Positions 5,561 through 37,166 of a DNA stretch of 64,000 bases are shown here, in pieces. Both the position numbers and the translations under genes were made by a program. The notes below the pieces were generated by a model. That model saw only the letters and a list, made by a program, of their open reading frames with translations, searched no databases and was not told the DNA's origin. Origin of the DNA: a virus (lineage: Duplodnaviria; Heunggongvirae; Uroviricota; Caudoviricetes); the IMG/VR virus record IMGVR_UViG_2529293038_000017, positions 23,342-87,341 of that record; one strand, written 5' to 3'. The first letter of the stretch is position 1, and each line of letters begins with the position of its first letter.

Positions 5561-7239
5561 TATGCTGCTCTCACAATATAATTGAAGGCAATGTTACGTG
5601 GGCGGGTTTCATTCCCCCCAGATAACTCCGTTCTGTATTGACTGGTAAATTTACCATTAATCGCTCCTTCTTGGACGGCGTTATCTGTCGACAACAGGCT
5701 ATCCCCCCCTCTGTCATTTGGCACCAATACCGTGTTATCCCACGCGTCCCATGACCGAATATTATGATAATGACTTCCTGTTAACCACCCCTGTATGCTT
5801 AAGATGACCCTTCCCGCATCCACACCTCGCCCATCATCCCAACCACGGATAAACTCACCGCGTAAATCAGGTAATTTTAACGTTGGGTAAACCTTTGCCA
5901 GATTTGGGTACTTTTCAGAAGAAAATGCTGCTCCGTTACATTTCAGCCACCCCGTTGGTGGTGTGGCTGAGGGCCATGGAACAGGTACACCAACGGGCAG
6001 CGCCGAGCCTTCCCCTAAACCAAGGTAATTAAGAACGCTCTGAATACTGGGCTTACTAAGAATTGCACGTCCAACACTTGTCAGTGCAGTTAACGCGGCA
6101 CGATCAACCCCTGTGAAATAAGGGAGTTTATCTGCTGCGGTAGCTAGTGCCGCTAGAGCAGTGAGCGTAGCGTCTGCCGCTTGCTTTCCATTAGCCAAAT
6201 CATATGCAGCCTTGACAGCTTTCGGTGTAGCGGCCAGCACTTCAGACGTGCTGTTAGTGGCACTACTGAGCTGAGTGATGCCTTTCGCTGTCAATGAAGC
6301 TGTTGGCACACCAGTAATCTGATTCCAGGGATGTGTATGACTGGATGGTGCCTTTCCGGCTGCTAGATCGTATGCAGCTTTAACCGCTTTTGGCGTTGCA
6401 GCTAATGTTTCAGAAGTGCTGTTGGTGTCGCTACTGAGCTGAACTATCCCTTTTTGTGTCGTGGTTGCATCCTGGGCTGTATACTTCCCGTTAGCCAGGT
6501 CATATGCAGCCTTGACAGCTTTCGGTGTGGCGGCCAGCACTTCAGACGTGCTGTTAGTGGCACTACTGAGCTGAACTAATCCCTTTTGCGTTGTGCTTGC
6601 ATCCTGCGCCGTATACTTGCTTTTCGCCAGATCGTAGGCTTTTTTAACTGCCAGCGAACTCGCAGCAACATCACTTCTGGTACTGGTTACAGAGTCTGAA
6701 ATATCAATGCCGATCGTGCGGTTGATACGCTCGGATGTATCAATCATCTCTTGAGTAATGGTAGATACGCCAGCAGGGATATTCACCGTACAAACCAGCA
6801 GTTCCCCATCACCTAACTGATATGAATCGGTATAGGTTCTGGCAACAAATTCAGCTGCATGAATATGTGACGCGGTATTCACCTGATAGGTATCTTCTCC
6901 AAGAAGGTATCTTCCCTTCAGCACAATTGCATATTTCTTGCCTGCGTTAAGTGCAAGAGAGATATCCTTACGATGCTGAATAGTTACCTGGTAGAATTCA
7001 CCAATATCCACTGACGCCGCGCCAGCGGTTTTATCTCCATCCACTGAGGTGATTAACAGGTTCATCCCACCGCCAGGCTTAGGCAAGAAACCAGCATAAA
7101 ATCCCGGGTCAACAATTCCCCTGAATTTTCGGTTTAGAGCGGCTGACAGATATGGTTCGTGGTATTGCACATCAGCCACCAGAGCCAACGACTCGGGTGA
7201 TGGGTAAGTAACCGATGTAACAACTGTAACGTCATTCAT
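5560..7239 (-). CDS. tail fibre protein S (constant part plus currently expressed variable part)
   Basis: Repeated fibre motifs (KAVKAAYDLA..KYTAQDA.TTQKG.VQLSS.TNSTSE, 3-4 copies), C-terminal NETRPRNIAFNYIVRA; start set to ATG 7239 (AAGGA upstream, just after R stop) rather than 7326. Confidence 0.8.
   Translation of the reverse strand: MNDVTVVTSVTYPSPESLALVADVQYHEPYLSAALNRKFRGIVDPGFYAGFLPKPGGGMNLLITSVDGDKTAGAASVDIGEFYQVTIQHRKDISLALNAGKKYAIVLKGRYLLGEDTYQVNTASHIHAAEFVARTYTDSYQLGDGELLVCTVNIPAGVSTITQEMIDTSERINRTIGIDISDSVTSTRSDVAASSLAVKKAYDLAKSKYTAQDASTTQKGLVQLSSATNSTSEVLAATPKAVKAAYDLANGKYTAQDATTTQKGIVQLSSDTNSTSETLAATPKAVKAAYDLAAGKAPSSHTHPWNQITGVPTASLTAKGITQLSSATNSTSEVLAATPKAVKAAYDLANGKQAADATLTALAALATAADKLPYFTGVDRAALTALTSVGRAILSKPSIQSVLNYLGLGEGSALPVGVPVPWPSATPPTGWLKCNGAAFSSEKYPNLAKVYPTLKLPDLRGEFIRGWDDGRGVDAGRVILSIQGWLTGSHYHNIRSWDAWDNTVLVPNDRGGDSLLSTDNAVQEGAINGKFTSQYRTELSGGNETRPRNIAFNYIVRAA
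6010..6035. other. cix-like crossover site (right boundary, inside S)
   Basis: TTCCCCTAAACCAAGGTAATTAAGAA; inverted relative to 4428..4453; ~200 bp of ~80% identical inverted sequence flank both sites inward. Confidence 0.5.
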
Positions 7240-30977: not shown

Positions 30978-31082
30978 TTTCCCGTCAGCACACATCCTAT
31001 ATCCCGCCAGCACACATTAGCAACCCGTCAGCACACATTTTTATCCCTCCAGCACACATCGTTTTCCCTCCAGCACACATCG
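30978..31082. repeat. oriR incC iterons (five 19-bp repeats at ~21-bp spacing)
   Basis: Five CCAGCACACAT(C/T)-containing repeats in the same orientation upstream of repA. Confidence 0.9.
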
Positions 31083-31129
31083 CGATACACTTCTAAGCCA
31101 GACGTGGCGCGGCCTGCAACGATCAGGGA

Positions 31130-31198
31130 TCTATATGGATCTAATTGGGATCTGTATGGACCTGATTATTGGATCTACCCAGTGGATAATGTGGATAA
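31130..31198. promoter_or_regulatory. oriR GATC cluster and tandem DnaA boxes
   Basis: Five GATC within ~60 bp; AGTGGATAA + TGTGGATAA (31181..31198). Confidence 0.8.
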
Positions 31199-31247
31199 GT
31201 GAAAAACCGGCCACTGAGGACCGATTTCTGTGAAGAGTTGAAGCGAA

Positions 31248-31649
31248 TTAGTTGTCGTTTTCCGTACCTACTTCTTCGATCAACAAACTACTTGTATAGA
31301 TGCGTAACGTATCACCTTTGTAGAGGAATTGATAACCAACACCTCCTATGGCAGGGAGGTCGGGGAACATTTCAGAAGCAACCCCAGAGCAAATCACGGC
31401 GATACAGTCATCCCGCTGTACATCCTTACGCTCTGTACTCAAAGTTTGCTCTTCCCCGATTGCCTTTGTCATCTCCTCATCTTCGTACGCAACAGGGATA
31501 TATTCAATCGCATCAGGCGTTTTGATACCCAGTTCTTCAGCAATCTCGAACGCCTGTTTAAATTGATCTGACCCAGGATATCCAACGGTAATACTCTCAA
31601 TTTCGAACAAAGAAGTAGCGTTGTTTATTTCTTGTTTAACCGCAAACAT
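31248..31649 (-). CDS. acidic hypothetical protein (133 aa)
   Basis: ORF in track adjacent to oriR. Confidence 0.5.
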   Translation of the reverse strand: MFAVKQEINNATSLFEIESITVGYPGSDQFKQAFEIAEELGIKTPDAIEYIPVAYEDEEMTKAIGEEQTLSTERKDVQRDDCIAVICSGVASEMFPDLPAIGGVGYQFLYKGDTLRIYTSSLLIEEVGTENDN

Positions 31650-31719
31650 GTTGTTTGTCCTTAGTGGCTTCCTGCCAAAGTAAAGTCATGAGTGTTGATA
31701 TTACGATTTCTACAGTTGA

Positions 31720-32079
31720 TTAAATCTGCTCGCTGAGCTTTTGCTTCAGCAGATAACCTTCCAGCGGCCAGATTTTCTCAATGGCGTTCTTACGGGCCAC
31801 CTTACGGCCAATCTCCGCGTCGAAATTTTCAGGGCTGGCACAGGCGCTTTCCCCGGTAACAATGAATCCATTGCACAGCACCAAGACACAGATGGTCAGG
31901 CTACGCGTAGAGGGATGAACAGACAGCACCTCACGAACGCCTTCGTGCGCAGCGCGAATGCCGTCAAAAGCTGTGAAATAATGCTCTTCGGCAATCACAC
32001 TCTCGATGTGATCAGGAGTCAGGCGTGGTGCTGTTTTGCCTTTGGCCAGAATCTCTTTTTCAATTTCCATATCGGACAT
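31720..32079 (-). CDS. hypothetical protein (119 aa)
   Basis: ORF in track. Confidence 0.5.
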   Translation of the reverse strand: MSDMEIEKEILAKGKTAPRLTPDHIESVIAEEHYFTAFDGIRAAHEGVREVLSVHPSTRSLTICVLVLCNGFIVTGESACASPENFDAEIGRKVARKNAIEKIWPLEGYLLKQKLSEQI

Positions 32080-32090
32080 AGTTTTTCCTT

Positions 32091-32423
32091 TTAGTTACCG
32101 CTGATAGCACGGTTGTAATCATTAACGTTGCGATTCTTCCTGTTAATCCCCTTCAGCATCGTTTCTGTATCGAGGATATACGCTGGCAGATCATCAAAAT
32201 ATTCACTGCTAAACTCTGGCATTCTGCACATAAATGCACTTTTGGGGGCAGGGTGGTTAACCTTTGTCGGCGTCGGCGTTAAATTCGCTGATCGACTCCC
32301 GGAGCAACCGCTGAGTGTCAGCAGGAATGCGCTGGCGAACATTACCCGCCGCAACCAGTTGTTTCTGAACTTCAGCTTTTCGTTCCATTTGCCTGTCAGC
32401 ATATTTGGCTTGTTCTGATTCAT
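32091..32423 (-). CDS. o-spanin-like outer-membrane lipoprotein (Rz1-like), overlapping i-spanin out of frame
   Basis: Lipobox LLTLSGCSG after basic/hydrophobic leader; Pro-rich; likely start at internal ATG 32342; 3' half lies within i-spanin gene. Confidence 0.55.
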   Translation of the reverse strand: MNQNKPNMLTGKWNEKLKFRNNWLRRVMFASAFLLTLSGCSGSRSANLTPTPTKVNHPAPKSAFMCRMPEFSSEYFDDLPAYILDTETMLKGINRKNRNVNDYNRAISGN

Positions 32424-32679
32424 TTTTCACTTCCTGGCTGTGAAAATGTTGCTCTGCTTTGTTCATCGTCTCAATGGTCTGGTTAAGATCCATTATTGAC
32501 TTATCACGTTCCTTAACAGCCTGATCAAGACTGCCAATTTTCTCCATGGCTTGCTTTAGCTGATGACGTTCCCATGCAAACCCAGCACCAACAAGTGCGC
32601 AAATCAGAACAAGAACACCAGTAGCAGCAAGTTTCTCCTTCAAAGACAAAGCTGTTTTTAACGTAGAAAAGAATGACAT
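32257..32679 (-). CDS. i-spanin-like protein (Rz-like; N-terminal TM helix plus coiled coil)
   Basis: Start set to ATG 32679 (AGGAGG upstream); TM LAATGVLVLICALVGAGFAW then coiled-coil. Confidence 0.55.
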   Translation of the reverse strand: MSFFSTLKTALSLKEKLAATGVLVLICALVGAGFAWERHQLKQAMEKIGSLDQAVKERDKSIMDLNQTIETMNKAEQHFHSQEVKNESEQAKYADRQMERKAEVQKQLVAAGNVRQRIPADTQRLLRESISEFNADADKG

Positions 32680-32718
32680 GTCTTCCTCCTGAAGAAAAAT
32701 TATCAATGAAGTCCTTTG

Positions 32719-33507
32719 TTACTGTGCCGCTTTGTTTAATTCATCAAGAACAGAATCAGGAACCAAAGCGGCAACTGCGCTGGCTGTGCTGACCTTATTT
32801 GCTGATGCTTCCGCAAGCGCGGTACCGATAGCATGGTTATAAGCAGTTATGGCTACGTTGGCGCTTTCATTCGCTCGTTCATACTGCTGTTGTAACGCAG
32901 TTGTGGGCGCTGTTGTCTGGTTGAAAACAACCCCAAACTGTTCAGTTGCTACTTTCAGAGATTCAATTTGCTCTTCTGTTAGTGCTGGTGGGGGAGTGGC
33001 AGTGCCGCCGCCTGAACCAGAGCCTGACGAGCTTCCTGAGCCAGTGTTAAGGGTCTGGTTAATCTCCCCCATAGCAGCGACTAAACTTGATGTATTAAGC
33101 GCGTTTACAGCGTCCTCAAGCGATTTAGTAATAGTCACATCACCAATGGCAATAGAGATCGGCAGTTCTGATACTTCTCGCTCATTAGCACGACAGTAAA
33201 CATCCCAACCAATATCGAGTTGAAGGAGCATTGACAGATCAGCATAACCAGCCAACAGGTCCGCGTGCTTAGTTGCCAGTTCTCCAATGTTCGTTAAGCC
33301 GGTTGTGGTTGTTCTGATCGTTGAAACATAGCTGGTAATAGTGTCGGGATAGACAATTGTATCCAGAATTAATCCGGTCAATTCTTCTGCAAGCAGTTTT
33401 GCTGTGTTAGCACTGTTTCGTGCCGATGTTATGGCACCAGGTGTTTTCATCCCACCGGCGGCGGCCAATTTTTTATATGCGGATAACTGGTAGTCTTTTT
33501 CCAGCAT
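32719..33507 (-). CDS. hypothetical protein with Gly/Ser-rich linker (263 aa)
   Basis: Start set to ATG 33507 (AGGAG 5 nt upstream) to avoid overlap with PAAR gene; GSGSSSGSGSGGG linker. Confidence 0.5.
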   Translation of the reverse strand: MLEKDYQLSAYKKLAAAGGMKTPGAITSARNSANTAKLLAEELTGLILDTIVYPDTITSYVSTIRTTTTGLTNIGELATKHADLLAGYADLSMLLQLDIGWDVYCRANEREVSELPISIAIGDVTITKSLEDAVNALNTSSLVAAMGEINQTLNTGSGSSSGSGSGGGTATPPPALTEEQIESLKVATEQFGVVFNQTTAPTTALQQQYERANESANVAITAYNHAIGTALAEASANKVSTASAVAALVPDSVLDELNKAAQ

Positions 33508-33515
33508 GATATCTC

Positions 33516-33800
33516 CTAACTTACCTGAACCAGGCCGTCTCCGGACGCTACGGTAGATCCGCATGAAACAGGGTCACCAACGCATACGATCCCTTTACCA
33601 TTGACGGTAAACCATGCCCTGGTTGATATAGCTTGCCCACCGTGCGTACTGTTTCCATCGGTATGCTGTGCATATTGCTTACCATCAACTAACACTTCGA
33701 CTCCGTTGACTTTAAGTAGTGGTTCACTCTCTACAGGAGGCCTGGATGGGAATCCTCCGTGCCCCGAACAAATGCTGTCTTTTGTTGCAATACTTGCCAC
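33516..33800 (-). CDS. PAAR-like spike-tip protein (94 aa)
   Basis: PAAR-type pattern: HGG, VNGK, VGDPVSCG, GDGLVQV. Confidence 0.6.
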   Translation of the reverse strand: MASIATKDSICSGHGGFPSRPPVESEPLLKVNGVEVLVDGKQYAQHTDGNSTHGGQAISTRAWFTVNGKGIVCVGDPVSCGSTVASGDGLVQVS

Positions 33801-33880
33801 GTCATCACCAATTATTTGCTCTGGTTTTCGTTATTTTAACTTAGGTTACTTGTGGTCTATATGGTGTTAACTATTGCATG

Positions 33881-33897
33881 ATTGCTCTAATAAATAT
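33881..33897 (+). promoter_or_regulatory. C1-type operator upstream of uhr-hrdC-dmt operon
   Basis: ATTGCTCTAATAAATAT, 1 mismatch. Confidence 0.65.
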
Positions 33898-33968
33898 TGT
33901 TTTTTATGTCGTGTTTTCGGTACCATTCAGCCATCGCCCTTCAATGGGTATTTGTTTGGAGTCGTCAG

Positions 33969-34253
33969 ATGCAGATGGAGCTAATAAGCCGCAAAGAGTT
34001 CGATAGCCGTGTAACCAGCGGTGAACTCGACAACTTGCAGGCTATCAAGGTGAAAGAAGGCTTTTGCCTCATTGGGAATCAGAGCGGAACAAATCGCGTT
34101 TTTATGCTTCGCCGTACGGATTTGAAGCCATTTGTCTGGAAGAACGAAATTGGTCCCAGCTCATACGCTCAAACTAGGGGGTGCCTCAACCTGGCCTTTT
34201 TCTACAAAAACGAGCTTTCTGTGGTTGATATTCAAGGGTTACAACATGTTTAA
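33969..34253 (+). CDS. hypothetical protein (94 aa), first gene of hrdC-dmt operon
   Basis: Start at ATG 33969 with GGAG upstream; stop overlaps hrdC start. Confidence 0.5.
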
Positions 34254-35151
34254 GCACTGGAAAAACATTACTATTTATAAACTTTCTCGTGAAGCGGATC
34301 TGACCGACTTAGAAGATAAAAAGAAAATGATCCTTTTCACGCCATGCGGTAGTCAGGATATGGCCAAGTTCGGTTTTGTATCTCCATTTGGTGATAATTC
34401 CGAAGTTATCGCTATGCATGGAAATGGTTTTATCCTTGTTGAAGCAAAGCGCGAAACAAAAATCCTTCCCCCGCCGGTTATCCAGCGAGCTATTCAAGAA
34501 AAAATTGAAAAACTCGAGCAAGAACAAGCGCGTAAACTGAAGAAAACAGAGAAGGACTCCCTGAAAGACGAAGTTCTGCATTCTCTTCTGCCACGGGCTT
34601 TTTCAAAGTTTTCTGTTATCCAGGCGATCTACGACGGTTCAACTAAACGTATCTATATCAATGCCAGCGCGCGGCAGGCAGAGGATATGCTCGCGCTTAT
34701 GCGTAAATCTCTGGGTTCTCTTCCTGTTGTTCCCCTAAGTGTTGAAAATCCCATTGAATTAACGCTGACCGACTGGGTACGTGATGGTAGTGCTCCACAG
34801 GGATTTCAAATGGGGGATGCGGCAGAACTTAAGGCAGTGCTTGAGGATGGCGGTATTGCCCGAGTGAAAAAGCAGGATTTGGGAAGCGATGAAATTTCCA
34901 CACACCTGGAAGCTGGCAAGCTCGTTACTAAGTTGGCACTCGACTGGCAGAACCGCATTAAATTTACACTGGACCATAACTTCAGCCTTACCAGCGTCAA
35001 ATTTGCGGATGAATTGCTTGAGCAGAACTCTGATATTGATAGTGAAGATGTTGCGCAGCGACTGGACGCAGATTTCTTCCTGTTGACCAGTGAAATTTCG
35101 TGCCTGGTTGATGCTCTGGTAAATGCCCTTGGTGGAGAGGCTAAGCAGTGA
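34246..35151 (+). CDS. hrdC: RdgC-like recombination-associated protein
   Basis: Start at ATG 34246; collinear similarity to E. coli RdgC ([88 protein letters not shown]). Confidence 0.9.
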
Positions 35152-37166
35152 AAGAGCTGTGCTATGGATCTGTTTGCAGTGGAATTGAAGCCGCGAGTAT
35201 TGCCTGGGAACCGTTGGGTATGCGTCCGGCGTGGTTTGCTGAAATCGAGCCTTTTCCATCTGCCGTTCTTGCGCACCGCTGGCCCCATGTCGCCAACCTT
35301 GGCGACATGACAAAACTTGCCAAAAAAGTCCTGGCTGGGGAAATCGAATCCCCTGATGTGCTCGTCGGGGGTACGCCTTGTCAGGCATTCAGTATCGCGG
35401 GCTTACGTGGTGGGCTTGATGATGAACGCGGCGCGCTAACTTTGAAGTATGTGGAGCTTGCAAATGCAATTGACGACAAACGGTCTGAGTCCTTCCTCAA
35501 ACCGACAGTTATCGTCTGGGAAAATGTCCCAGGAGTCCTGTCATCGGCAGATAACGCCTTCGGATGTTTCCTTGCCGGATTGGCTGGAGAAGATGCGCCA
35601 TTTGAACCAGGTGATCGACCTGAATCAGGAAAAAGTAACGCGTTCTGGCGGTGGGATGGCAAAACCGGTTGCCATGCTCCAAAGTGGCCGCAGTGTGGTT
35701 GTATTTATGGACCGCAGCGAAAGGTGGCCTGGAGAATCCTTGATGCCCAATACTTCGGAGTGGCACAACGACGCCGACGCGTGTTTGTTGTCGCAAGTGC
35801 TCGAACAGACCTCGATCCCGCAACGGTACTTTTTGAGTTCGAAGGCGTGCGCCGGAATATTGCGCCGAGCAGAGGCGAGGGGAAGGAAACTACCAGATAT
35901 ACTTCAAACATCGCTATCAGATCTTGCGATGATACAAACATAGTTGCCATGGCACATGGGCAAGGAGGGGCTGAGATAAAAACCGATAATTCGGCACCAA
36001 CTTTGACATGTAACCATGAAGCACCAATTGTATTGCTCGTCGACGGTAGAATGCGCCGTCTTATCCCTGTCGAATGTGAAAGGCTGCAAGGTTTTCCTGA
36101 TGGACATACATTGATCCCTACGGAAAAGCGTAAAAAAGTTTCTTCAGATGAACTGGCATACCTTCGCAAAAACTATCCTGATTTGAGCGAAGAAGAGGCC
36201 GCGATGCTTGCAGCTGACGGACCGCGTTACAAAGCGATCGGCAATAGTATGGCGATACCAGTAATGCGCTGGATTGGCGATCGGATTGCCAAGGCTGCAT
36301 GTCGGCAGAAGGAAGGGAGTGAAACAAAAGAGCGAAAAGTTAAACCAGCGGCAGAATTCGAACGGTCCATATTCAAATGGGCTGGTGGAAAATTTGGTGT
36401 TCTGGAACAAATCTTTCGCTATTTGCCAGAAGGGAAGCGCCTGATTGAGCCTTTCGTTGGTGGCGGAGCTGTCTTCATGAATGCCGGATACCAGGAAAAT
36501 CTGCTAAATGATGTGAATGCTGACCTGATTAACTTTTACAAGACTCTGCAACGCGAGGCGCATTCACTTATCACTCTGGCACATCGTTTCTTCCAGGACT
36601 ACAACACGCAGGAAGGATACCTGGCAGTACGGAATGCGTTTAACAAACAAGTCTATGATGATTTACATCGCGCAGCGGCGTTTTTGTTCCTGAACCGACA
36701 TTGTTTTAACGGATTGACGCGTTACAACCAAGCCGGTGAGTTCAATGTCGGTTATGGGAAGTATAAAACTCCGTATTTCCCATTGCAGGAGATGGAAGCC
36801 TTCCTTGGTGCGGAAGGGCGTTCTGAGTTTGTATGTGGTGATTTTGCTGCGGTGATTGAAGCTGCCGGAGAAGGAGATGTCATCTTTTGCGATCCGCCGT
36901 ATGAACCGCTCCCAAATACAGAGGGATTCACGAACTATTCCGGTCATGACTTTAAGTTTGAAGAGCAAAAACGCCTGGCGTCTCTGTTGACGGATGCTCA
37001 TCGCCGAGGTGCAAAGGTTCTCATTACTAACAGTGGCGCGCCAAACATCAGAGAACTTTATCAGGACAGTGGCTTCAGAGTGGAACCTCTTTTTGCCAGA
37101 CGTTCTGTGTCTTGTAAGGGGGACACTCGAGGTGTTGCTCATGACGTTATAGCAATATTGCTCTAA
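35148..37166 (+). CDS. dmt: bifunctional DNA methyltransferase: N-terminal C5-cytosine MTase fused to C-terminal Dam-like N6-adenine MTase
   Basis: [12 protein letters not shown] and ENVPG motifs in N-half; Dam motifs FKWAGGK...[10 protein letters not shown] and FCDPPYEP in C-half. Confidence 0.88.

What the first reader, a model, noticed from the sequence alone, without database searches (positions are those of the whole stretch)
33516..33800. PAAR-like spike-tip gene located in the lysis/replication-side operon, far from baseplate genes
The 94-aa ORF has the PAAR-type pattern (HGG, VNGK, VGDPVSCG). It lies next to an overlapping spanin pair and a Gly/Ser-linker protein, about 11 kb from the gpV/gp5-like spike gene at 44726..45358 and about 24 kb from the fibre/baseplate block.
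Basis: partly seen in the sequence, partly recalled or inferred. Interest (0 to 1): 0.38.

Follow-up and report, generated by a model that had tools for sequence, protein, structure and literature searches.

The report
Phage P1 spike-tip gene upfC

Summary
The ORF is real: 33516..33800, minus strand, GTG start, 94 aa. It differs at one residue from phage P1 UpfC, and the whole window is a P1-like phage-plasmid.

The PAAR reading holds:
- PHROG 281 matches at 2e-30. Pfam PAAR_motif scores 26.4 bits against a cut-off of 27, and 26 of 27 family members match it.
- A family profile hits T4 gp5.4 (2e-16) and two T6SS PAAR structures.
- An AlphaFold model (pLDDT 96.8) superposes on PDB 9VYI, UpfC in the P1 baseplate, at TM 0.97. 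It superposes on gp5.4 and T6SS PAARs at TM 0.86-0.88.
- The metal ligands expected from gp5.4 (three His, one Cys) are invariant: H14, H46, H53, C80.

The neighbours are as described: UpfB (the Gly/Ser protein, reported in 2026 as a "tripod" hanging on the tip), the overlapping spanin pair ppfA/mlp, and gene 5 (the spike) 10.9 kb away.

All of this is published: a 2004 annotation note, HHpred plus a knockout in 2022, and cryo-EM in 2025-2026. The distance from gene 5 is a lineage trait. Distant P1-like relatives keep 7-24-6-5, hrdC, dmt, cargo, upfC, upfB, while a P2-like relative has the tip gene right after its spike gene.

The small additions are a tight upfC/upfB stop-SD-ATG junction and a weak candidate late promoter.

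The parts
33516..33800 (-). upfC: 94-aa PAAR-type spike-tip protein (GTG start at 33800..33798, TAG stop at 33518..33516). Predicted metal-ligand codons: H14 33761..33759, H46 33665..33663, H53 33644..33642, C80 33563..33561.
   Evidence: 93/94 identical to P1 UpfC. PDB 9vyi_A matches at E 1.7e-60. PHROG 281 matches at 2e-30. The AF2 model superposes on 9VYI at TM 0.97. The ligand residues are invariant in 27 homologues.
33805..33809 (-). Shine-Dalgarno-like GGTGA, 4 nt upstream of the GTG start of upfC.
   Evidence: Read directly from the sequence. It is largely conserved in the 79 related loci that carry the ORF, with GGTGG or GGTAA in a few.
33833..33851 (-). Candidate weak P1-type late promoter: AAGTAACCT-N4-TAAAAT. 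It is not annotated in P1.
   Evidence: The site scores 12.6 bits on a PWM built from 7 annotated P1 late promoters; known late promoters in the window score 20-22. The -10 TAAAAT is invariant in related loci, but the -22 box is degenerate, and P1's own version scores below 9 bits. This is a lead only.
33505..33518 (-). upfC/upfB junction. The upfC stop TAG (33518..33516) is embedded in the AGGAG Shine-Dalgarno (33517..33513) of an ATG at 33507..33505, which is the likely true start of upfB.
   Evidence: Read from the sequence. The junction CAGGTAAGTTAGGAGATATCATGCTG is identical in 78 of 79 related loci. PHROG 1559 and distant UpfB homologues align from residue 20 of the long ORF.
32719..33507 (-). 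upfB: 262 aa from the ATG at 33507 (281 aa if started at 33564 as in the P1 annotation). It has a Gly/Ser linker and is reported as a trimeric 'tripod' attached at the spike tip.
   Evidence: PHROG 1559 matches at 7e-138. There is no Pfam, NCBIfam or PDB sequence hit. The cryo-EM paper is PMC12810830. The gene directly follows upfC in P1-like loci, with one 122-aa gene between them in L090.
32257..32679 (-). ppfA: Rz-like inner-membrane spanin. The ATG at 32679 follows the P1 annotation; the mechanical ORF runs back to 32706.
   Evidence: PHROG 89 'Rz-like spanin' matches at 1.5e-25.
32091..32423 (-). mlp: Rz1-like outer-membrane lipoprotein spanin. It overlaps ppfA by 167 nt in another frame.
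   Evidence: PHROG 30284 'Rz-like spanin' matches at 3e-76, and the translation has an LSGC lipobox.
44726..45358 (-). Gene 5: the trimeric central spike (OB fold plus beta-helix, no lysozyme domain) that UpfC caps.
   Evidence: PDB 9vzk_q 'Gp5' matches at E 7.6e-137. Pfam Phage_base_V scores 21 bits against a cut-off of 23.8. There is no HxH motif near the C-terminus.
45351..46367 (-). Gene 6: baseplate hub, immediately upstream of gene 5 in the LP26 late operon.
   Evidence: Matches P1 gene 6 by position and annotation. The hub assignment comes from PMC12810830.

Best explanation
The ORF is upfC of a P1-like phage-plasmid. Its product is a small PAAR-fold cone.

One copy sits on the blunt C-terminal end of the trimeric gp5 beta-helix and forms the sharp point of the tail spike. 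The apex is held together by a tetrahedral metal site made of H14, H46, H53 and C80, by analogy with the Fe site of T4 gp5.4.

When the sheath contracts, the tube-hub-spike-tip assembly is driven into the host envelope. The tip sharpens and stabilises the spike. In P1 it also carries UpfB, encoded by the next gene.

The stop codon of upfC is embedded in the upfB ribosome-binding site, so upfB translation is probably coupled to that of upfC.

The gene is dispensable for plaque formation on laboratory hosts. As with T4 gp5.4, it probably gives a fitness or host-envelope-dependent advantage.

Shown here or in the literature: the identity, the fold, the position in the virion, and dispensability. 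Inferred: the metal binding, the translational coupling, late expression, and a conditional advantage.
For: Identity:
- 93/94 identical to P1 UpfC.
- Synteny repA-upfA-mlp-ppfA-upfB-upfC | uhr-hrdC-dmt, as in NC_005856.

Family:
- PHROG 281 at 2e-30.
- PF05488 at E 8.5e-6 for this protein; 26 of 27 relatives match, best 2.4e-21.
- The family profile hits T4 gp5.4 (5iv5, 4ku0) at 2e-16, VCA0105 (4jiv) at 1e-12 and c1882 (4jiw) at 2.5e-8.

Fold:
- AF2 pLDDT 96.8, all-beta.
- Foldseek gives 9VYI TM 0.97 at rmsd 0.7 A, 4KU0_D 0.86, 4JIV_D 0.88 and 4JIW_D 0.87.

Metal site:
- H14, H46, H53 and C80 are invariant in 27 homologues down to 40% identity. They align with the His/His/His/Cys of gp5.4.
- The gp5.4 site is three His plus one Cys binding Fe, and its H14A mutant fails to bind the spike (PMC12407873).

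Partner:
- Gene 5 of the window matches PDB 9vzk Gp5 at 7.6e-137 and lacks the C-terminal HxH apex motif, which predicts a separate tip.

Virion location:
- Cryo-EM models show monomeric UpfC on trimeric gp5, with UpfB tripods at the tip (PMC12810830; bioRxiv 10.1101/2025.07.21.665459).

Dispensability:
- The upfC deletion plaques normally (PMC9024508).
- CRISPRi scores it non-essential (PMC10695390).

Coupling:
- The TAG/AGGAG/ATG junction is conserved in 78 of 79 loci, and full-length upfC lies directly upstream of upfB in 78 of 80 loci.
Against: - The single-sequence Pfam score (26.4) falls just under the gathering cut-off (27).
- The literal P-A-A-R tetrapeptide is absent.
- The NCBIfam T6SS PAAR equivalog is far from met, 36 against 124 bits.
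- UpfC was not detected by LC-MS/MS of P1 virions. The authors explained this by one copy per virion of a 10-kDa protein.
- No strong late promoter lies upstream. The best site scores 12.6 bits against 16-22 for the seven annotated P1 late promoters used for training, and P1's own version scores below 9.
- No phenotype is known for its loss.
Confidence: 0.96

Rival explanations
1. UpfC is a moron or host-takeover PAAR protein, such as a T6SS-type adaptor used in the lysogen, rather than a virion part.
For: - PHROG 281 is filed under 'moron, auxiliary metabolic gene and host takeover'.
- JGI names homologues 'Zn-binding protein involved in type VI secretion'.
- The gene sits beside plasmid-maintenance and early genes rather than in a tail operon.
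- It was not found by virion LC-MS/MS.
Against: - Cryo-EM places it on the gp5 spike.
- The NCBIfam T6SS PAAR equivalog scores 36 bits against a cut-off of 124.
- The protein is a bare 94-aa cone with no effector extension.
- Its closest solved relatives outside P1 are phage tips: T4 gp5.4 and the Klebsiella phage KP1 variant vB_Kpn_Lilla1 baseplate chain.
- A P2-like relative encodes it between the spike and gp25 genes.
Confidence: 0.02
2. The gene is a decaying remnant. It is a true PAAR homologue, but no longer functional or expressed, which would explain its dispensability and isolated position.
For: - No plaque defect on deletion or knock-down.
- No convincing promoter.
- One of 80 related loci carries a frameshifted copy, L024.
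Against: - 78 of 80 P1-like loci keep a full-length copy.
- Relatives at 40-60% identity keep the length (93-96 aa) and every metal ligand. UpfC is much better conserved than its neighbour UpfB, 54-61% against 26-30%.
- The protein is present in virions.
- T4 gp5.4 is likewise 'non-essential' yet strongly advantageous.
Confidence: 0.02

Closest known systems
Bacteriophage P1 UpfC (P1_gp066, YP_006534; PDB 9VYI chain A)
   Same: 93/94 identical. Same length, same GTG start, same neighbours (upfB, ppfA, mlp downstream; the divergent uhr-hrdC-dmt operon upstream) and the same spike partner, gp5.
   Different: There is one substitution (S86 here, A86 in P1). The S86 form is the commoner allele among IMG/VR P1-like loci, 39 against 21. 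The window also has an extra Phage_gp49_66 gene between mlp and upfA that P1 lacks.
Bacteriophage T4 gp5.4 spike-tip protein (PDB 4KU0, 5IV5)
   Same: A monomeric PAAR-fold cone of about 95 residues on a trimeric gp5 beta-helix. The three-His-plus-one-Cys metal ligands align. Both are dispensable for plaque formation. TM 0.86, 28% identity.
   Different: T4 gene 5.4 lies close to gene 5 (the ORFans 5.1, 5.3 and 5.4 are near contiguous) and is read from a late promoter. Here the tip gene is 10.9 kb from gene 5. The T4 spike carries a lysozyme domain and P1 gp5 does not. No T4 counterpart of UpfB, which the cryo-EM paper calls novel, came up in the papers read here.
T6SS PAAR-repeat proteins VCA0105 (4JIV) and c1882 (4JIW)
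   Same: Same conical fold (TM 0.87-0.88) and the same role as a cap on a VgrG/gp5-type beta-helix.
   Different: 14-22% identity. UpfC has no literal PAAR tetrapeptides. It fails the NCBIfam T6SS PAAR equivalog cut-off. It is a phage virion part, not a secretion-system component.
PAAR genes of P2-like tail modules (metagenomic relative P0067, locus L004)
   Same: 94 aa, 43% identical, with the same invariant residues.
   Different: There the gene sits in the canonical place, directly between the Phage_base_V spike gene and the gpW/gp25 baseplate gene.

Membership tests
Orthologue of phage P1 UpfC | Near-identical sequence over the full length | tested here: met
   93/94 identical. PDB 9vyi_A 'UpfC' matches at E 1.7e-60 over residues 1-94.
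Orthologue of phage P1 UpfC | Conserved gene neighbourhood (upfB-ppfA-mlp downstream, divergent uhr-hrdC-dmt upstream, oriR/repA beyond) | tested here: met
   Megablast gives 96.8-98.5% identity to P1, P7 and other P1-like phages in the listed rows. The P1 annotation table shows the same order.
PAAR-repeat superfamily (Pfam PF05488; spike-tip proteins) | Profile match at the curated threshold | tested here: inconclusive
   This protein scores 26.4 bits against a gathering score of 27 (E 8.5e-6), matching only residues 51-91. 26 of 27 family members match at E<=0.01, best 2.4e-21. PHROG 281 'PAAR motif' matches at 2e-30 over residues 1-93.
PAAR-repeat superfamily (Pfam PF05488; spike-tip proteins) | Conical all-beta fold superposable on solved PAAR proteins | tested here: met
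   The AF2 model has pLDDT 96.8. Foldseek TM is 0.86 (T4 gp5.4), 0.88 (VCA0105) and 0.87 (c1882), all at probability 1.00.
PAAR-repeat superfamily (Pfam PF05488; spike-tip proteins) | Apical tetrahedral metal site made of three His and one Cys | tested here: met
   At the sequence level, H14, H46, H53 and C80 are invariant in 27 homologues and align with the corresponding residues of gp5.4. The gp5.4 site is described in PMC12407873. Actual metal binding cannot be tested with these tools.
PAAR-repeat superfamily (Pfam PF05488; spike-tip proteins) | Three literal Pro-Ala-Ala-Arg motifs | tested here: not met
   The string PAAR does not occur in the 94 residues. This feature gave the family its name but is not required: gp5.4 is deposited in the PDB as a 'PAAR repeat protein' (4KU0) and is treated as a member. 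I did not check whether gp5.4 carries the literal tetrapeptide.
PAAR-repeat superfamily (Pfam PF05488; spike-tip proteins) | Binds as a monomer to the blunt end of a trimeric gp5/VgrG beta-helix | not testable with these tools
   No multimer prediction is available here. Published cryo-EM of P1 shows it (PMC12810830, PDB 9VYI). The partner gp5 is present in the window and lacks an HxH apex.
T6SS PAAR protein (NCBIfam NF033420, equivalog domain) | Score at or above the curated equivalog cut-off | tested here: not met
   36.3 bits against a cut-off of 124. It is not a T6SS component.

The most novel reading that the evidence does not exclude
upfC-upfB may be a conserved, translationally coupled 'tip decoration' cassette of P1-like phage-plasmids. 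It would be read from its own weak, unannotated late-type promoter (33833..33851). Its value would be conditional on the host envelope, as with T4 gp5.4 on deep-rough LPS hosts. The fast-diverging UpfB would be the host-facing part and the conserved PAAR cone its adaptor.
Probability: 0.3. Interest if true: 0.3.

Novelty: already known. Interest (0 to 1): 0.07.

Why it matters
It matters little as a discovery. The gene, its fold, its place in the virion and its dispensability are all in the literature and the PDB.

It is useful as a calibration case. A tool-less reader correctly recognised a PAAR tip from three short motifs.

It also serves as a reminder that in P1-like phage-plasmids virion genes are scattered. 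A structural gene next to spanins and the plasmid replicon is therefore not evidence of a new function.

Three side observations could help annotation and follow-up work on what the tip and tripod do:
- the likely over-extended upfB start;
- the conserved stop-SD-ATG junction;
- slow UpfC divergence against fast UpfB divergence.

Tried and rejected
1. Late promoter. I built a PWM from the seven annotated P1 late promoters whose -22 box fits the palindrome and scanned the window.
- A 12.6-bit site lies 33 nt upstream of upfC.
- Eight sites at about that score or better occur in the window, against 1.7 expected by a Markov-1 simulation. Six of them are strong sites at 20-22 bits, five of which match annotated P1 late promoters in sequence.
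- P1's own copy scores below 9 bits, and the -22 box varies among relatives.
- I keep this only as a lead, not as a finding.

2. Sigma-70 scan. One 9-of-12 match lies upstream of upfC, but the region has fewer matches than the shuffles (3 against 4.6), so it is uninformative.

3. Terminator scan. Nothing convincing was found within the upfC to upfA run.

4. The P1 genome paper (tried as PMC523184, an id recalled from memory) is not held. Its view is taken only from the GenBank notes.

5. P1 RNA-seq paper PMC8201110. Its main text has no mention of upfC, upfB, ppfA or mlp. The supplements were not searched.

6. UpfB. It has no Pfam, NCBIfam or PDB sequence relatives. I did not model it.

7. I considered that the ORF might be a chance ORF, or that the PAAR motifs might be coincidental. 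Both are rejected by the identity and fold results.

Full report
**Observation**

The ORF listing gives a 94-codon ORF at 33516..33800 on the minus strand with a GTG start. Its translation is MASIATKDSICSGHGGFPSRPPVESEPLLKVNGVEVLVDGKQYAQHTDGNSTHGGQAISTRAWFTVNGKGIVCVGDPVSCGSTVASGDGLVQVS.
- A GGTGA Shine-Dalgarno-like sequence lies 4 nt upstream of the start.
- Downstream on the same strand lie a 281-aa ORF with a GSGSSSGSGSGGG linker (32719..33564) and two overlapping ORFs (32257..32706 and 32091..32423). The two overlapping ORFs match Rz-like spanin PHROGs at 1.5e-25 and 3e-76, and the second has an LSGC lipobox.

**What the window is**

Megablast of 31000..36000 finds P1, P7 and other P1-like phages at 96.8-98.5% identity in the listed rows. 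The two ends of the window match the same group.

In the P1 reference record the gene order is repA, oriR, upfA, mlp, ppfA, upfB, upfC, followed by the divergent C1-controlled Pdmt promoter and uhr-hrdC-dmt. The window has the same order.
- The 94-aa protein is 93/94 identical to P1 UpfC.
- The P1 record's own note already says that UpfC residues 10-93 are 31% identical to the product of T4 ORF 5.4.
- At least one relative, RCS47, is annotated 'UpfC (PAAR motif)'.

**Family and fold**

Sequence evidence:
- Pfam PAAR_motif scores 26.4 bits (E 8.5e-6), just under the gathering score of 27.
- PHROG 281 'PAAR motif' matches at 2e-30 over the whole protein.
- The large protein database holds 71 homologues, most of them exactly 94 aa and most carrying a precomputed PF05488 hit.
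- In an alignment of 27 of them, down to 40% identity, the invariant residues include G13, H14, H46, H53, G55, D76, S79, C80 and G81.
- 26 of the 27 match PF05488, best 2.4e-21.
- The family profile hits solved structures: UpfC 9VYI at 2e-49, T4 gp5.4 at 2e-16, V. cholerae VCA0105 at 1e-12 and E. coli c1882 at 2.5e-8.

Structural evidence:
- An AlphaFold2 model built on this alignment has mean pLDDT 96.8 and is all-beta.
- Foldseek against the PDB returns the cryo-EM structure of the P1 baseplate (9VYI) at TM 0.97 and rmsd 0.7 A.
- It also returns T4 gp5.4 bound to the gp5 beta-helix (TM 0.86), the baseplate of Klebsiella phage KP1 variant vB_Kpn_Lilla1 (0.93) and the two T6SS PAAR proteins (0.88 and 0.87). 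Nothing else meaningful follows.

Two checks go the other way. The NCBIfam T6SS PAAR equivalog is far from met, 36 against 124 bits. The literal PAAR tetrapeptide is absent. So this is a phage-type tip of the gp5.4 kind, not a T6SS component.

**Mechanism**

The T4 work describes gp5.4 as a monomer that caps the flat end of the trimeric gp5 beta-helix. It has a tetrahedral Fe site made of three His and one Cys at the apex, and an H14A mutant no longer binds the spike (PMC12407873). The four corresponding residues of UpfC (H14, H46, H53, C80) align with these and are invariant.

The spike partner is present in the window. The ORF at 44726..45358 matches PDB 9VZK 'Gp5' at 7.6e-137. It has a sub-threshold Phage_base_V OB-domain match. 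It lacks the C-terminal HxH motif that marks spikes with a built-in apex, as expected for a spike that needs a separate tip.

Published cryo-EM of P1 built monomeric UpfC onto trimeric gp5. It reports UpfB, the Gly/Ser protein next door, as three trimeric 'tripods' anchored at the tip (PMC12810830; see also bioRxiv 10.1101/2025.07.21.665459).

Two studies show that upfC is dispensable:
- A upfC deletion has no plaque defect, and UpfC was missed by LC-MS/MS. The authors attributed this to its size and single copy (PMC9024508).
- CRISPRi also scores upfC, upfB, ppfA and mlp as non-essential (PMC10695390).

T4 gp5.4 is likewise non-essential in the laboratory, but it is advantageous and is required on deep-rough LPS hosts. 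A similar conditional role for UpfC is an inference.

**The 'odd' location**

However, the block of tube, tube-linking, sheath and head genes ends only 6.4 kb away, on the same strand. P1 in any case spreads its late genes over many operons.

Relatives show what is ancestral:
- A P2-like metagenomic relative (43% identity) has the PAAR gene in the canonical slot, between the Phage_base_V spike gene and the gpW/gp25 gene.
- More distant P1-like phage-plasmids (UpfC 54-61% identical) have 7-24-6-5, then hrdC, then dmt or dam, then variable cargo, then upfC, upfB and a spanin. The virion, hrdC and dmt genes all lie on one strand, and only some cargo genes (ParM/StbB for example) are on the other.
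- So the split of spike and tip by the hrdC/dmt block is a trait of the whole lineage. In P1 and this window the intervening block is larger and lies mostly on the opposite strand. It holds uhr-hrdC-dmt, tRNAs, an IS21-type element, an SPFH-domain gene, ban and dbn.

The link between upfC and upfB is tight:
- 78 of 80 IMG/VR loci recovered with UpfB carry a full-length upfC directly upstream. Of the other two, one is cut by a contig end and one is frameshifted.
- The junction CAGGTAAGTTAGGAGATATCATGCTG is identical in 78 of 79 loci. In it the upfC stop TAG is embedded in an AGGAG Shine-Dalgarno sequence for an ATG at 33507.
- This ATG corresponds to residue 20 of the annotated 281-aa UpfB. PHROG 1559 and the distant UpfB homologues begin there.
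- The annotated start is therefore probably 19 codons too long, and the two genes are probably translationally coupled.
- UpfB diverges much faster than UpfC, 26-30% against 54-61% identity in the same genomes.

**Expression**

No promoter for upfC is annotated in P1.

A PWM built from seven annotated P1 late promoters (AAGTNACTT-N4-TANNAT) recovers six strong sites in the window at 20-22 bits. It also gives a 12.6-bit site at 33851..33833 (AAGTAACCT aagt TAAAAT), 33 nt upstream of the GTG.

The -10 element is invariant among relatives. The -22 box is degenerate and variable, and P1's own copy scores under 9 bits. I treat this as a lead only. The main text of the available P1 RNA-seq paper does not mention these genes.

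**Verdict**

Novelty: already known. Interest: low.

Noticed in passing
window 33505..33564 (minus strand): The annotated start of upfB (ATG at 33564, giving 281 aa and a 49-nt overlap with upfC) is probably too far upstream. An ATG at 33507 is preceded by AGGAG, into which the upfC stop codon is embedded. PHROG 1559 and distant homologues align from that methionine.
   Followed up: yes
window 33833..33851 and 32699..32717 (minus strand): There are two weak matches to the P1 late-promoter pattern (-22 box plus -10). One scores 12.6 bits and lies upstream of upfC. The other scores 11.1 bits, lies just upstream of the ppfA ATG, and is also present in P1. Neither is annotated in P1 as a late promoter.
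   Followed up: partly
window 31720..32079 (minus strand): A 119-aa gene of the Phage_gp49_66 family (Pfam 1.1e-33) sits between mlp and upfA. In the P1 reference record, mlp follows upfA directly, so this gene is an insertion relative to P1.
   Followed up: no
window 39163..40964 (minus strand): An IS21-type pair lies in the region between dmt and ban: an IstB-like ATPase (7.7e-112) and an rve integrase/transposase of 340 aa.
   Followed up: no
window 35148..37166: The Dmt ORF is 672 aa here. In P1 the coordinates 66412..68676 give 754 aa, and a distant relative has 749 aa. The C-terminal part may be truncated or rearranged.
   Followed up: no
window 37842..37995 and 41955..42030: Three tRNA genes are present: Asn(GTT), Thr(TGT) and Met(CAT).
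   Followed up: no
homologues P0005, P0007, P0009, P0011, P0015, P0028, P0038, P0042: Many UpfC homologues in NCBI are named 'alanine racemase'. This is evidently a propagated misannotation of a 94-aa PAAR protein.
   Followed up: no
L007 7321..8001; L090 5826..6023 and 6440..6808: Distant P1-like relatives carry extra small genes attached to the PAAR gene. One is a 226-aa ORF ending where the PAAR gene starts, with no PHROG or Pfam hit. The others are a 65-aa ORF upstream and a 122-aa ORF between PAAR and UpfB, which were not searched. They may be further tip-associated proteins.
   Followed up: partly
L092, L007, L090 compared with the window: In the same genome pairs, UpfC is 54-61% identical while UpfB is only 26-30% identical. 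The tip adaptor is conserved and the protein hanging on it evolves fast.
   Followed up: partly
L024 2710..2989: One P1-like IMG/VR contig has upfC split into two frames. This is a frameshift, either a real pseudogene or a sequencing error.
   Followed up: no
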